Source of the DNA: the human T2T-CHM13v2.0 reference genome, Homo sapiens
Reading direction: 5' to 3' (one strand)
Length of the DNA: 64,000 nucleotides
NCBI RefSeq assembly: GCF_009914755.1
Contig: NC_060925.1
In this document: piece after piece, positions 37,241-45,650 of the stretch
Position numbering within the stretch: the stretch's first letter is position 1
Layout of the letters: each line of letters starts with the position of its first letter
The notes under the pieces: generated by a model
What the model was told of the DNA's origin: nothing
The model's database searches: none
The model's input: the letters and a program-made list of their open reading frames with translations, nothing else
Program-made: the position numbers and the translations under genes

Positions 37241-38046
37241 GTTTTTTGCATAATGTCTTTATTTTGCAGAAAATGCTTTCTGCTTATTGTCTTTGGCTAC
37301 TTTGTCAAAACTCTAGGTATGTCAACTCTAGCTATGATACCTGACACAAAAGAAGCCTGAACATTACTTGAAAGCAACAAGGAAGAGAATGAAAGTTTGT
37401 TTTTTATCTCACTAAAGTAGGGCCATTGTTTACAAATTCTGGTATGCCAAAGTCATCTATATGCTATATGAGAAACAAACAAGAAGTTTCTGGACCCTAG
37501 TGAACAGTTTTTTTTTTCTGTGAATCATGGTGAATTAGGCCCAACTGCATTGCTTCCAGCCTTGAATTCACCTAGATGACTCAGGACAACACTGCCACTG
37601 CAGATTACCAGCAAAGTGGGAGGTGGTGATGGGACTTTTTGATAAATAGTAGAATATGTATTCCTTCTTCTATTTTAAAATGAAGTTAATAAGGGTTTAT
37701 TTCCTTCCTTTGACCCATGCGACTGCCATTTTATACCTAGTAGATCCATCAGATGAACGCTGGTTGCAAAGTCATTGCATATTTCAAGACATAGGTCTTG
37801 ATTCACATGGAAGGTGGTGACATGGCTGTCTATGAGGCTACCAGTAAGGTTGGGCTGAGGCATTGTACTGGCTGTCAGGCGTGTCTGTGTCTGTGACAGT
37901 CCCTTCATACAGTGGGGATCCTAGAGCTAGTAGATGGATTGGTGTTATGACTCATGGGGCACATACTGATGTGGGCAGGCATTCGAGGCTGGACCAACTG
38001 ACAGGGGATTGGAGCATGGATAAACACACAGATGAATTGTCAGAAT
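37241..38046 (-). pseudogene. Processed Brachyury (TBXT/T) pseudogene, 3' part: exon 7-8 equivalent, stop, 3'UTR, polyA signal
   Basis: Minus strand gives SDNSSVCLSMLQSPVSWSSL / MSHNTNPSTSS / SPLYEG / DSQYNASAQ / AMSPPSM* (TGA 37803-37805), matching the Brachyury C-terminus (YSDNSPACLSMLQSHDNWSSL...GSPLYEG...DSQYDAAAQ...VSPPSM). The 3'UTR ends gacaaaagtagccaaagacaataagcagaaagcattttctgcaaAATAAA (37258-37263), followed by an A-rich tail. Confidence 0.9.
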
Positions 38047-38447
38047 TGTAAGGCTCTTGTATCGGTTTGAACCCTGAAAGCGCACCAACGAACAACACAA
38101 GGCGGTGTGGAGCAACACGCTGTTTTAATGTGTGCCTGGGTGCAGACGGGCTGAGGCTTAAAAGGGCATCAGCACCAAATGCGGACAGGGCAGCAGTTTT
38201 ATAGTCTCCTGTAAACAGGAAGTGTCTCAGTCTGATGTAACTGCTATGCAGTACCTGGACAGCAGTACCTCTCTCGGTCTTCAGGGGGTACATGTCTTCC
38301 GGCCAGTTCTCTTCCTGCTTCTGCCATCTTGCTGACAAACACTGTTGGCACAAGTGGTCTTGTGCCTTGGGACTAGGCCTCAGAAGTGAGGAGTTATTCA
38401 CCACCACCTCCCCCCGCCGGCTTCCAGGCCCTGGGGAAAGTCTTTCA
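38047..38447 (-). repeat. 3' LTR (MER48-like)
   Basis: tgaaagactttcccc...gagccttaca on the minus strand; TATAAAA at 38197-38203, ATTAAA at 38124-38129, ETS site caggaagtg. Family name from recall. Confidence 0.9.
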
Positions 38448-38550
38448 TTCTTGTCTATTTGGTTATAGAAAAAGGGAAAAGCGACGACTTTCTCAATAAC
38501 TACTTCAAGCGTGACATAGGGGGTGGTGTGGCCACCTTGGAAACAAAAAC

Positions 38551-38925
38551 TTAATTTTGGGGGTATTTTTGAGAGATGGGTTGGTATTCATCATGTCGTT
38601 GCAGCAGGAGCATCGTCTGGATTGTCTGGTGGTTAACTATGGTTTCAACAAGACTTTTATTAGCTTTTATTATTAGTGGGATAATACAGGGGAGAAACAG
38701 GAGGAGCCCAGTGATGAAGATTACTGTCCCTACCAGCATTTTAAATCCTCTTAAATTAGAGAACCACCCTCCTAGAATGTTTGTTGGGTCCCATCCCTTC
38801 CAGGTTTGGACTGGTACATGGGCTACTTTTCTGATGTTTGAAGCGATTTATAGTACTGTTTTTCCATTATCGTCTATGTTAAGACAACAATTGGAGATAT
38901 TAAACTTACCACAAACCTCACCTTC
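38551..38925 (-). pseudogene. env remnant: C-terminal TM only
   Basis: [46 protein letters not shown]...MLVGTVIFITGLLLFLPCIIPLII (cysteine loop, membrane anchor). One internal stop; SU absent. Confidence 0.9.
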
Positions 38926-44159: not shown

Positions 44160-44177
44160 TTCCAGATTTCGGCACCA
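44160..44177 (-). other. Primer-binding site, tRNA-Phe type
   Basis: TGGTGCCGAAATCTGGAA, 2 nt after the 5' LTR; 15/18 match to TGGTGCCGAAACCCGGGA. Confidence 0.85.
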
Positions 44178-44179
44178 GA

Positions 44180-44583
44180 TGTAAGGCTCTTGTATCAGTT
44201 TGAACCCCGAGAGCGCGCCAATGAACACCACAAGGCGGTGTGGAGCAACGCGCTGTTTTAATGTGTGCCTGGGTGCAGATGGGCTGAGACCTAAAATGGC
44301 ATCAGCACCAAATGAGACCGGGCAGGGGTTTTATAGTCTCCTGTAAACAGGAAGTGCCTCAGTCTGATGTAACTGCTACAGGGTACCCGGACGGCCTCTC
44401 TCTCAGCCTTCAGGGGGTACGTGTCTTCTGCCGGCCGTCTCTCTTCCTGCTTCTGCTGTCTTGCTGATGCACGCTGCTGGCGCAAGTGTTCTTGCGCCTT
44501 GGGACTGGGCCTGAGAAGGGATGAGTTATTCACCCCCTCACCCTCTTCCCGCCCAGCTTCCAGGCCTCAGGGAAAGTCTTTCA
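44180..44583 (-). repeat. 5' LTR (MER48-like)
   Basis: Direct repeat of 38047-38447 with roughly 45-50 differences by eye; TATAAAA at 44329-44335. Confidence 0.9.
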
Positions 44584-45650
44584 AGAATGTGTTGGAGAAC
44601 TGTTCCAGTGAGCACAGGGCTAGGGTAGGAGGATGAATGTTGGTTCCTCAGGGCAGGGTACCTTTCACAGCTGTATGTGGAAGGAAGTGAGGGAGGCCTC
44701 CAAACTGAGGATGGGGGTTGGCAGGTGGACAGAAGGTACTGGTTCTAGGAATAAGCTACCCACTGAATGGGAGTTCCTAGATTGGGGTTCTTCCTGGCTG
44801 CCTTGGAGTTCTTCCATCATATCTTTGTAATTGCTTCTTTCCTTTGCATCCAGGGAAGCTTTTGCAAATGGATTGTGTTTAATTTTCAGCTGTGAGCTCT
44901 TCATTCTGATAAGCTGTCACAGTTATTTATGAACTAGGTCTCGGAAAGCAATGGCTAGTGATCATGTGTTGTGGACACCCCACTCTCACTATGTGAATTC
45001 GAGGCTGGTGCTTATTAAGGAGTTTGACATAATCAGGCCCCCTCTGTGTAGCTAGTTGTTGATCTTGACTTTGCTGAGGGAGATGGACACCTTCATCTAG
45101 TAGGGCCCTGAGTTGGGGGAATTGGGCTGGATGGGCACACACCTGAGCACCTGCAGCTCAGGCTTGCCCTCTGGCACCCATTCCTGGTTCCCACTCCTGG
45201 TTTTCTTCCAGCGCTTACTGTGGGCCTCCATGAAGTCCAGCAAGAAGGAGTACATGGCTCTTAAAGCCAGGCCAGACATGCTTGGCACTGGAAACAACTT
45301 CCTGGCATTCCTGGTGGTGATCATGTCATTGGTGAGCTCCTTGAAGCATAGCCACAACTTGCTCTCCTCCAGGCCTATGTGCCACTTTCACTCTACATGG
45401 TCACCCTTCTCAATGCCTGGCTTGTTGCTCACGCTTCATGGCTCTCAGCAGGTGGTCCACTCGGTACTGCAGGCTCTTCGATGCACACTCTTACCAGTGC
45501 TGTGGGAGCTCATTCTCCTGCCTGCCTCCCCCGCACCCCCACTTTCTTCTAAGCCCCAACTTGCTACTTGAGAACCATCTTTACCTCTCCAAGACCTATG
45601 AAGGTGCCTGGGTCCCTGTATAGACTTGGAGGAGGGTAAGGACGGAGATC
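44584..45650 (-). pseudogene. Processed Brachyury (TBXT/T) pseudogene, 5' part: 5'UTR, ATG (45513), T-box and exon 5-6 equivalent
   Basis: Intronless, frameshifted: MSS.. / SLQYRVDHLL / GLEESKLWLCFKELTNDMITTRNARKLFPV / AMYSFLLDF / EWVPEGKPE / HQPRIHIVRVGCPQHMITSHCF / VTAYQNEE / LKIKHNPFAKASLDAKERSNYKDMMEE / CPPANPHPQFGG / CERYPALRN / NSSPT. The 5' boundary is approximate. Confidence 0.93.

What the first reader, a model, noticed from the sequence alone, without database searches (positions are those of the whole stretch)
37241..45650. Full-length processed Brachyury (TBXT) retrocopy hidden by a proviral insertion
Seen: removing 38047-44588 (provirus plus one AGAAT) joins ...AACAGTTCTCCAACACATTCT to GACAATTCATCTGTGTGTTTATCCATG... 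The result is one continuous intronless minus-strand copy, from MSS...SLQYRVDHLL through the T-box to ...MSPPSM*, then 3'UTR, AATAAA and an A-rich tail. Knowledge: these peptides match Brachyury rather than TBX19 (N-terminal SLQYRVDHLL, C-terminal SPPSM). Inference: retrocopies of tightly restricted developmental transcription factors are uncommon, and this one implies T mRNA in germline or early-embryo cells with active L1. Being split in two and decayed, it could easily be unannotated; I cannot confirm its annotation status.
Basis: partly seen in the sequence, partly recalled or inferred. Interest (0 to 1): 0.9.

Follow-up and report, generated by a model that had tools for sequence, protein, structure and literature searches.

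The report
Known TBXT pseudogene split by provirus
This is an old, dead, intron-less copy of the Brachyury (TBXT) messenger RNA in an RGL1 intron on human chromosome 1, later cut in two by an endogenous retrovirus; it is an ordinary processed pseudogene, and its front half is already annotated.

Summary
On the minus strand, window 45581 (probably ~45702) to 44589 and 38046 to ~37226 are the two halves of one intron-less TBXT mRNA copy. They are separated by a 6,537-bp LTR-gag-pro-pol-LTR provirus (38047-44583) with a 5-bp target duplication, AGAAT. Removing the provirus and one AGAAT restores the TBXT exon 6/7 sequence without gain or loss. DNA from the two halves matches only the chr6 TBXT locus, exon by exon in order, and a second TBXT retrocopy on chr5. 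Six of seven exon junctions are seamless or nearly so. AATAAA and an A-rich tail sit at the parental poly(A) site.

The copy is dead: 80.7% identity in the coding part, 15 frameshifting indels and 6 in-frame stops. RefSeq already lists the 5' half as LOC100420254; the 3' half has no row in the table given.

Three details are new here:
- An Alu sits in the A tail.
- The provirus has a Phe-type primer site and no env.
- A 155-nt gap starts at the exon 7/8 junction and may record an ancient alternative splice form.

TBXT mRNA in germ-cell precursors is established, so heritable retrocopies are not surprising. Low interest.

The parts
36891..36915 (-). Distal remnant of the retrocopy's A-rich tail, beyond the Alu. 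The end point is approximate.
   Evidence: the minus strand reads ...TTTTAAAAAAGAAAAATGGAAAAATTAAGAG once the Alu and one duplication copy are removed.
36932..37225 (+). Alu-type SINE with an A tail, inserted into the retrocopy's A tail. It is flanked by a 16-bp duplication, AAAATAATATTTTATT, at 36916-36931 and 37226-37241.
   Evidence: sequence; window 36931-37218 matches three places in TBXT introns at 82-84%, in both orientations, so it is a dispersed repeat. The name 'Alu' is recognised from memory and was not checked against a repeat library.
37226..37257 (-). Proximal A-rich tail that follows the poly(A) signal.
   Evidence...AATAAAGACATTATGCAAAAAACAATAAAATATTA. Homology to the TBXT mRNA ends at window 37244.
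37258..37263 (-). AATAAA poly(A) signal, aligned with TBXT's own AATAAA.
37244..37802 (-). 3'UTR remnant: 79.2% identity over 528 aligned nt, with two gaps of 35 and 31 nt.
   Evidence: The last 67 nt are 94% identical to C6:167527458-167527524.
37803..38046 (-). 3' coding remnant: exon 7 from its 4th base, then exon 8 without its first 155 nt, ending ...SPPSM and TGA (37805-37803).
38042..38046 (.). Target-site duplication AGAAT of the provirus, first copy. It is part of TBXT exon 7 (ATTCT on the minus strand).
38047..38447 (-). 3' LTR of the provirus, 401 nt.
38448..44179 (-). Proviral interior, read on the minus strand. The primer-binding site is at 44177-44160. It is followed by:
- gag: weak MA, p30 in two frames, and a zinc knuckle;
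- protease and reverse transcriptase;
- RNase H;
- only the start of the integrase core.
No env is present. All genes are broken by stops or frameshifts.
   Evidence: (Pfam):
- Gag_MA E=7.5e-4, below the cut-off.
- Gag_p30 4.1e-11 and 4.9e-13.
- zf-CCHC 1.4e-7.
- RVP 3e-8 and RVT_1 9.7e-21.
- RNase_H 2.3e-17.
- rve 9.7e-6, below the cut-off, profile positions 4-38 of 102.
Searches cover the primer-binding site.
44180..44583 (-). 5' LTR of the provirus, 404 nt.
   Evidence: the LTR family had 177 first-look candidates in this genome; 40 were scored, at 80-87% identity.
44584..44588 (.). Target-site duplication AGAAT, second copy.
44589..45513 (-). 5' coding remnant: ATG (45513-45511) through exons 1-6 and the first 3 bases of exon 7. 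It includes the T-box.
   Evidence: Pfam T-box, 77.3 bits, profile 2-180 of 182, on window 44854-45375 minus, with 7 stops inside. Also; a 96-aa open stretch best matches PDB human TBXT.
45514..45702 (-). 5'UTR remnant, certain for 45514-45581 and probable for 45582-45702.
   Evidence: the BLAST block starts at 45581; colinear local match of 45702-45607 to C6:167537627-167537528, score 27, against 200 shuffles with mean 18.4, sd 2.0 and maximum 25.

Best explanation
A mature, spliced and polyadenylated TBXT (Brachyury) mRNA was reverse-transcribed and inserted, antisense, into what is now an RGL1 intron. This happened in a cell of the germ line or its embryonic precursors. The agent was presumably the L1 machinery; that step is inferred. 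The copy had no promoter of its own and decayed neutrally.

Later a gammaretrovirus-like endogenous retrovirus with a tRNA-Phe primer site integrated 8 nt into the exon 7 part. It lies in the same orientation and duplicated 5 bp. Later still, an Alu landed in the A tail. The locus is now a non-coding fossil, and no protein can be made from it.

Relative ages: the per-branch LTR divergence is about 0.078. The retrocopy's own branch shows about 0.107 raw changes per site. The provirus is therefore roughly two thirds as old as the retrocopy. With recalled neutral rates of 1.2-2.2e-9 per site per year, the retrocopy is roughly 50-100 Myr old and the provirus roughly 35-65 Myr old.
For: Parent is TBXT.
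- of the 7 matches of the 5' half in the whole genome, 1 is itself, 5 are consecutive TBXT exons on C6 and 1 is the chr5 retrocopy.
- of the 10 matches of the 3' half, 1 is itself, 3 are on C6, 3 are on the chr5 copy and 3 are A-tail or Alu-tail matches.
- Neither DNA search matched the TBX19-like locus.
- the C6 exons have GT-AG at all seven introns and translate to 435 aa, MSSPG...SPPSM.
- exon 2 of that locus scores 202.9 bits to PDB 'T-box transcription factor T'.
- a 96-aa open stretch of the pseudogene scores 103.6 bits to the same chains, against about 35 bits for TBX5 and TBX3.
- at the T-box, DNA scores are 174 bits to TBXT and 91.5 bits to the C1:167.64 Mb locus.

Processed copy.
- junctions 1/2, 2/3, 3/4, 4/5 and 6/7 are contiguous, and 5/6 has a 2-nt insertion.
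- AATAAA and an A-rich tail sit at the parental mRNA end.

Dead copy.
- 80.7% identity over 1130 coding nt, K2P 0.228.
- 20 gap events, 15 of them frameshifting, and 6 in-frame stops.
- among changed codons, 118 are nonsynonymous and 56 synonymous.
- 7 stops inside the T-box match.

Provirus.
- paired LTRs and a 5-bp duplication; K2P 0.156, or 0.111 without CpG-context transitions.
- gag-pro-pol domains in order on the minus strand.
- the primer site matches the tRNA-Phe 3' end plus CCA at 15 of 18 positions.

Branch lengths.
- of 1545 three-way columns, 165 changes are specific to the chr1 copy, 267 to the chr5 copy, and 122 are TBXT-specific or shared by the two copies.

Germ-line access to TBXT mRNA.
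- Discussion passage of PMC7618081.
Against: -: no target-site duplication of the retrocopy itself was found. The best match was an 8-mer, and 87 of 300 shuffles reached that score. The L1 mechanism therefore rests on general knowledge, not on a signature at this locus.
- the distal 5'UTR match is weak (z about 4.3), so 'full-length' is not firmly shown.
- at protein level the T-box exon barely separates TBXT (69.7 bits) from the C1:167.64 Mb locus (67.4 bits). The discrimination rests on DNA scores and on the non-T-box and UTR parts.
- The absolute ages use recalled substitution rates and were not calibrated here.
- I could not check transcription or any regulatory use.
Confidence: 0.96

Rival explanations
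1. The copy derives from TBX19, TBXT's closest paralogue, or from another T-box gene, and not from TBXT.
For:: at the T-box exon, protein-level scores are close, 69.7 bits for TBXT and 67.4 bits for the C1:167.64 Mb locus. I take that locus to be TBX19 from its recalled map position.
Against: -: the whole-genome DNA searches with both halves returned no match at that locus.
- DNA at the T-box scores 174 bits against 91.5 bits.
- the N-terminal, C-terminal, 5'UTR and 3'UTR parts (94% over the last 67 nt) match only the chr6 locus.
- that chr6 locus scores 202.9 bits to PDB TBXT chains over all 88 residues of exon 2.
Confidence: 0.01
2. These are two unrelated TBXT fragments, or a DNA-level duplication of the gene, that merely flank a provirus.
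For: None specific. The halves are 6.5 kb apart and only one of them is annotated.
Against: -: the halves abut to the base in the mRNA once one copy of the 5-bp duplication is removed.
- all introns are absent.
- A poly(A) tail is present.
- neither search matched TBXT intron sequence, apart from the unrelated Alu.
Confidence: 0.01
3. The fossil has been put to use, for example as an LTR-driven or RGL1-antisense non-coding RNA, or as a decoy for microRNAs that target the TBXT 3'UTR. This is compatible with the origin given above.
For: The last 67 nt of the 3'UTR are 94% identical to TBXT, well above the 79% average for the 3'UTR. Two LTRs lie in the same orientation as the copy.
Against: -: decay is neutral-looking everywhere else, with 118 nonsynonymous to 56 synonymous codon changes and many indels.
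- No RefSeq functional element overlaps the locus in the table given.
- A 67-nt well-kept patch can arise by chance.
- No expression data could be consulted.
Confidence: 0.04

Closest known systems
LOC100420254, 'T-box transcription factor T pseudogene' (RefSeq annotation of T2T-CHM13, as supplied with the finding)
   Same: It is the same locus and the same strand. Its span, 44584..45588, equals the 5' half found here (BLAST block 45581 to 44592).
   Different: The RefSeq span stops at the provirus boundary. The 3' half (38046 to about 37226, plus the tail beyond the Alu) is not in the table given. I could not consult GENCODE, RetrogeneDB or pseudogene tracks.
Second TBXT processed pseudogene at C5:28318246-28320079 of the same genome
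   Same: It is intron-less. One BLAST block spans mRNA positions 646-1474 across six exon junctions, and the copy reaches the same poly(A) end.
   Different: - It is more decayed: 66-76% identity to TBXT, and 267 copy-specific changes against 165 for chr1, out of 1545 columns.
- It keeps the 155-nt exon 8 segment that the chr1 copy lacks.
- Only two short identical gaps are shared with the chr1 copy, both in the 3'UTR part, so the two look like independent events.
- No provirus was seen within it.
L1-mediated processed pseudogenes in general
   Same: Spliced, polyadenylated, promoter-less, on a different chromosome from the parent, and neutrally decayed.
   Different: The flanking target-site duplication, the usual hallmark, is no longer recognisable here.
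Class I (gammaretrovirus-like) human endogenous retroviruses with a tRNA-Phe primer site (HERV-F-type naming, recalled)
   Same: MLV-type Gag_p30 and weak Gag_MA, the order protease - reverse transcriptase - RNase H, TG...CA LTRs, and a Phe-type primer site.
   Different: - Most of integrase and all of env are absent.
- The purine tract before the 3' LTR is poor.
- The repeat-library family name was not determined, because no Repbase or Dfam library is on hand.

Membership tests
Processed (retrotransposed) pseudogene | All parental introns are absent and exon junctions are contiguous. | tested here: met
   Junctions 1/2, 2/3, 3/4, 4/5 and 6/7 are contiguous, and 5/6 has a 2-nt insertion. Junction 7/8 is joined to a point 155 nt inside exon 8.
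Processed (retrotransposed) pseudogene | Poly(A) tail directly after the parental polyadenylation site. | tested here: met
   AATAAA at 37263-37258 aligns with TBXT's own signal. An A-rich tail follows, interrupted by an Alu and decayed.
Processed (retrotransposed) pseudogene | Flanking target-site duplication of the L1 type. | tested here: inconclusive
   The best flank-to-flank match is 8 nt, and 87 of 300 shuffles reach it. This is expected at such an age but is not shown.
Processed (retrotransposed) pseudogene | Located away from the parent gene, with disabling mutations. | tested here: met
   The parent is on C6 and the copy on C1. There are 15 frameshifting indels and 6 in-frame stops.
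TBXT-derived, as against other T-box genes | Best match to TBXT over the coding part, and homology in the gene-specific UTRs. | tested here: met
Endogenous retrovirus provirus (class I, gamma-like) | Two LTRs in direct orientation with TG...CA ends, flanked by a short target duplication. | tested here: met
   LTRs of 401 and 404 nt; AGAAT on both sides.
Endogenous retrovirus provirus (class I, gamma-like) | tRNA primer-binding site just inside the 5' LTR. | tested here: met
   the site is at 44177-44160, 2 nt after the LTR. It matches at 15 of 18 positions the complement of the 3' end of tRNA-Phe(GAA) genes plus CCA. All three differences are transitions.
Endogenous retrovirus provirus (class I, gamma-like) | gag-pro-pol domains in retroviral order, with gamma-type Gag. 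| tested here: met
   Gag_p30, zf-CCHC, RVP, RVT_1 and RNase_H are above their cut-offs. Gag_MA and rve are below theirs.
Endogenous retrovirus provirus (class I, gamma-like) | env gene. | tested here: not met
   none of the 14 frames given matched an env family. These were 14 of the 19 minus-strand stop-to-stop frames of 70 aa or more listed. Only about 470 nt lie between the last pol match and the 3' LTR. The provirus is therefore deleted.
Alu SINE | A dispersed element of about 300 nt with an A tail and a target duplication. | tested here: met
   16-bp duplication; three copies in TBXT introns at 82-84% identity. Identity to the Alu consensus is recalled and was not tested against a library.

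The most novel reading that the evidence does not exclude
The chr1 retrocopy may be a fossil of an ancient alternative TBXT transcript. That transcript would have joined exon 7 to a second 3' splice site 155 nt inside the last exon, shifting the C-terminal reading frame.

- The missing 155 nt start at the exon 7/8 junction.
- They end right after CCCTCTTCCTCGG, one of only 13 acceptor-like positions among 2201 in the mRNA model.
- There are 4 gaps of 15 nt or more. By my own arithmetic from the counts, both ends falling this way by chance has odds of about 2 in 10,000.
- Human TBXT now has GG at the site, not AG.
- The older chr5 retrocopy reads ...CCCAG at the aligned place. The ancestral serine codon may therefore have been TCA, which would give a usable acceptor. 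CpG decay in the chr5 copy could give the same reading.
Probability: 0.4. Interest if true: 0.2.

Novelty: already known. Interest (0 to 1): 0.1.

Why it matters
It matters little. It gives a small annotation correction: LOC100420254 should be a two-part feature that continues on the far side of the provirus, to about window 37226, with tail remnants to about 36891. It also gives a nested series of three dated insertions (retrocopy, then provirus, then Alu) that could serve as a phylogenetic marker in primates.

Two TBXT retrocopies in one genome fit the established presence of TBXT mRNA in germ-cell precursors. If the 155-nt gap does record an alternative splice form, it would give a glimpse of TBXT transcript diversity tens of millions of years ago. 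Nothing here suggests a working gene.

Tried and rejected
- **Target-site duplication of the retrocopy**: flanks 36830-36915 were compared with 45580-45800. Nothing rose above shuffles.
- **TBX19 as parent:** rejected.
- **First primer-site pattern**: I searched for the recalled complement of the tRNA-Phe 3' end including CCA. It hit 8 places, none on the chromosomes where later found tRNA-Phe genes. CCA is not encoded in tRNA genes. I did not examine those 8 loci. The pattern without CCA hit 6 places, and ARAGORN called tRNA-Phe(GAA) at that spot in all 3 of the 6 that I gave it.
- **Literature:**
  - 'brachyury' with 'processed pseudogene' gave 12 papers.
  - Five names for the locus gave 12 papers.
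  - 'brachyury' with 'retrocop' gave 7 papers, 3 of them listed.
  - From the listings, no title or abstract concerns a TBXT pseudogene.
  - PMC4949931 mentions Brachyury only in its reference list (passages).
  - 'TBXTP1' in PMC13338061 occurs once, in a ferroptosis context unrelated to this locus (passage).
  - Supplements were not consulted.
- **Orthologues in other mammals** could not be sought, because no other eukaryotic genome is held.
- **Repeat-library names** of the LTR and the Alu could not be determined.
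Full report
**What is there**

The window is human chr1, inside an RGL1 intron according to the table supplied. Reading the flagged ends gave three features.
- Two LTRs lie in direct orientation at 38047-38447 and 44180-44583.
- Both LTRs begin TG and end CA.
- The pentamer AGAAT sits immediately outside each LTR, at 38042-38046 and 44584-44588.

A Pfam T-box search of the whole assembly found an intron-less T-box on the minus strand at window 44854-45375. 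It scored 77.3 bits over profile positions 2-180 of 182 and had 7 stops inside.

**Parent gene**

I searched the assembly with each half as DNA.
- The 5' half (window 45700-44584, minus) gave 7 matches: itself, five consecutive blocks at C6:167532249-167537457, and one block on chr5.
- The 3' half (38046-37200, minus) gave 10 matches: itself, three blocks at C6:167527458-167530765, three on the same chr5 locus, and three short A-rich or Alu-tail matches (one search was unanswered and was repeated).
- Neither search matched the other close T-box locus at C1:167.64 Mb. I take that locus to be TBX19 from its recalled map position.

I fetched the C6 region and defined eight coding exons.
- All seven introns are GT-AG.
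- The spliced model translates to 435 aa, MSSPG...SPPSM.
- Exon 2 scores 202.9 bits over all 88 residues to PDB chains named 'T-box transcription factor T'. The C6 locus is therefore TBXT.

A 96-aa open stretch of the pseudogene (window 45387-45100, minus) scores 103.6 bits to the same human TBXT chains. It scores 93 bits to Xenopus T and about 35 bits to TBX5 and TBX3.

At the T-box exon, protein scores hardly separate TBXT from the C1:167.64 Mb locus (69.7 against 67.4 bits). DNA scores do separate them (174 against 91.5 bits), and everything outside the T-box matches only TBXT.

**Continuity**

A script excised 38047-44588 by coordinates, and I aligned the joined copy to the TBXT model.
- The copy aligns as eight colinear blocks.
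- Exon junctions fall at window 45302|45301, 45034|45033, 44897|44896, 44837|44836, about 44766|44763 and 44592|44591.
- No intron sequence lies between any of them.

TBXT reads ...TTCTCCAA | CCTATTCTGACAAC... across exon 6 | exon 7. The excised copy reads ...TTCTCCAACACATTCTGACAAT.... The provirus therefore sits 8 nt into exon 7. The duplicated ATTCT is TBXT's own sequence. Removing the provirus and one duplication copy neither loses nor adds a base. This is what a simple retroviral integration into a pre-existing retrocopy predicts.

**Ends**

- The ATG is at 45513-45511 and the stop after ...SPPSM is at 37805-37803.
- AATAAA at 37263-37258 aligns with TBXT's own signal.
- Homology to the mRNA ends at 37244, where an A-rich run begins.
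- That run is interrupted by a + strand Alu-type element (36932-37225) with a perfect 16-bp duplication at 36916-31 and 37226-41. It resumes to about 36891.
- At the 5' end, homology is certain to 45581. That is close to RefSeq's end at 45588.
- Homology probably continues to about 45702. A colinear local match there scores 27, against a mean of 18.4, sd of 2.0 and maximum of 25 in 200 shuffles.
- I found no target-site duplication of the retrocopy itself (best 8-mer, reached by 87 of 300 shuffles).

**State of decay**

- The coding part is 80.7% identical over 1130 aligned nt (K2P 0.228).
- It has 20 gap events, 15 of them frameshifting.
- It has 6 in-frame stops among 370 fully aligned codons.
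- Among changed codons, 118 are nonsynonymous and 56 synonymous.
- The 3'UTR is 79.2% identical (K2P 0.247).

No protein can be made from the copy.

**The provirus**

The longest stop-to-stop frames lie on the minus strand. I gave Pfam 14 of the 19 minus-strand frames of 70 aa or more. In order they gave:
- Gag_MA (weak, below the cut-off);
- Gag_p30, split over two frames;
- a zinc knuckle;
- RVP and RVT_1 in one 429-aa frame;
- RNase_H;
- only the first third of the integrase core (below the cut-off).

No env family matched. Only about 470 nt remain before the 3' LTR.

Two bases inside the 5' LTR lies an 18-nt primer site (44177-44160). It matches at 15 of 18 positions the complement of the tRNA-Phe(GAA) 3' end plus CCA. 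The tRNA reference was checked on 3 of the 6 genomic hits of a recalled motif.

The LTRs are 86.1% identical over 397 columns. K2P is 0.156, or 0.111 without CpG-context transitions. The LTR family is dispersed: 177 first-look candidates, of which 40 were scored at 80-87% identity.

It is thus a deleted, dead, class I (gamma-like) endogenous retrovirus, in the same orientation as the retrocopy. I could not determine its repeat-library name.

**Ages**

I made a three-way alignment of TBXT, the chr1 copy and the chr5 copy, with 1545 ungapped columns.
- 165 changes are specific to the chr1 copy.
- 267 are specific to the chr5 copy.
- 122 have the two copies agreeing against TBXT.

Each LTR has about 0.078 changes per site, and the retrocopy's own branch has about 0.107 raw changes per site. 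The provirus is therefore about two thirds as old as the retrocopy. With recalled neutral rates of 1.2-2.2e-9 per site per year, this gives roughly 50-100 Myr for the retrocopy and 35-65 Myr for the provirus. These figures are not calibrated here. The perfect duplication of the Alu suggests it is the youngest of the three.

**The second copy**

C5:28318246-28320079 is another intron-less TBXT copy.
- One block spans six exon junctions.
- The 3'UTR runs to the same poly(A) end.
- Identity to TBXT is 66-76%.
- It shares only two short identical gaps with the chr1 copy, both in the 3'UTR part, and it keeps the exon 8 segment that the chr1 copy lacks.

The two look like independent events. Among the 50 T-box matches listed, three span several exons' worth of the profile in one stretch. 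Two are these TBXT retrocopies. The third is a fully open 371-aa frame on C15, which I take to be MGA (recalled).

**An oddity**

The chr1 copy lacks 155 nt that begin at the first base of exon 8. They end directly after CCCTCTTCCTCGG. That is one of only 13 acceptor-like positions among 2201 in the mRNA model, and the alignment has 4 gaps of 15 nt or more.

From those counts I put the chance that one of the four gaps has both ends placed this way at about 2 in 10,000. This is my own arithmetic. It allows 1 nt of slack at the junction, which gives 21 eligible positions.

Human TBXT has GG at the site, not AG, so it is not a usable acceptor today. The older chr5 copy reads ...CCCAG at the aligned place. 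CpG decay could also have produced that reading.

I hold an ancient alternative 3' splice site as a 40% reading. The alternative is a chance deletion.

**Comparison with what is known, and verdict**

RefSeq already names 44584..45588 as LOC100420254, 'T-box transcription factor T pseudogene'. The span stops exactly at the provirus. The 3' half has no row in the table given, and I could not consult GENCODE or RetrogeneDB.

Three full-text searches found no paper on a TBXT pseudogene (listings only, plus passages).

[quoted passage not shown] This genome also holds two TBXT retrocopies.

The finding is correct, well observed and ordinary.

Noticed in passing
L023 (G000:C5:28316501-28322500); the copy is at C5:28318246-28320079, minus strand: A second, more decayed intron-less TBXT copy on chr5. 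It is 66-76% identical to the TBXT mRNA model and reaches the same poly(A) end. It appears independent of the chr1 copy.
   Followed up: partly
window 37920-37922 (minus strand), junction of the exon 7 and exon 8 parts: The retrocopy lacks 155 nt that start at the exon 7/8 junction and end after a pyrimidine tract plus GG. The chr5 copy reads CAG at the aligned place. This may be a fossil of an alternative 3' splice site.
   Followed up: partly
window 36916-37241: An Alu-type SINE on the + strand, with a perfect 16-bp target duplication, sits inside the retrocopy's A tail.
   Followed up: yes
G000:C12:63703420-63703584: An isolated T-box fragment (profile 115-166, 56 bits, one TAG). Its statistics are almost the same as those of an exon-sized match at C7:35381944-35382108. 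It may be another T-box pseudogene fragment.
   Followed up: no
one search hits, for example C23:68130452/68136830, C12:88209279/88217202 and C8:85712498/85716343: The LTR family of this provirus occurs in pairs 2.4 to 7.9 kb apart at several other places in the genome. These are presumably other proviruses of the same family with different internal deletions.
   Followed up: no
window 37244-37310: The last 67 nt of the TBXT 3'UTR are 94% identical between the retrocopy and its parent, well above the 79% average for the 3'UTR. This may be chance or a slowly changing patch.
   Followed up: no
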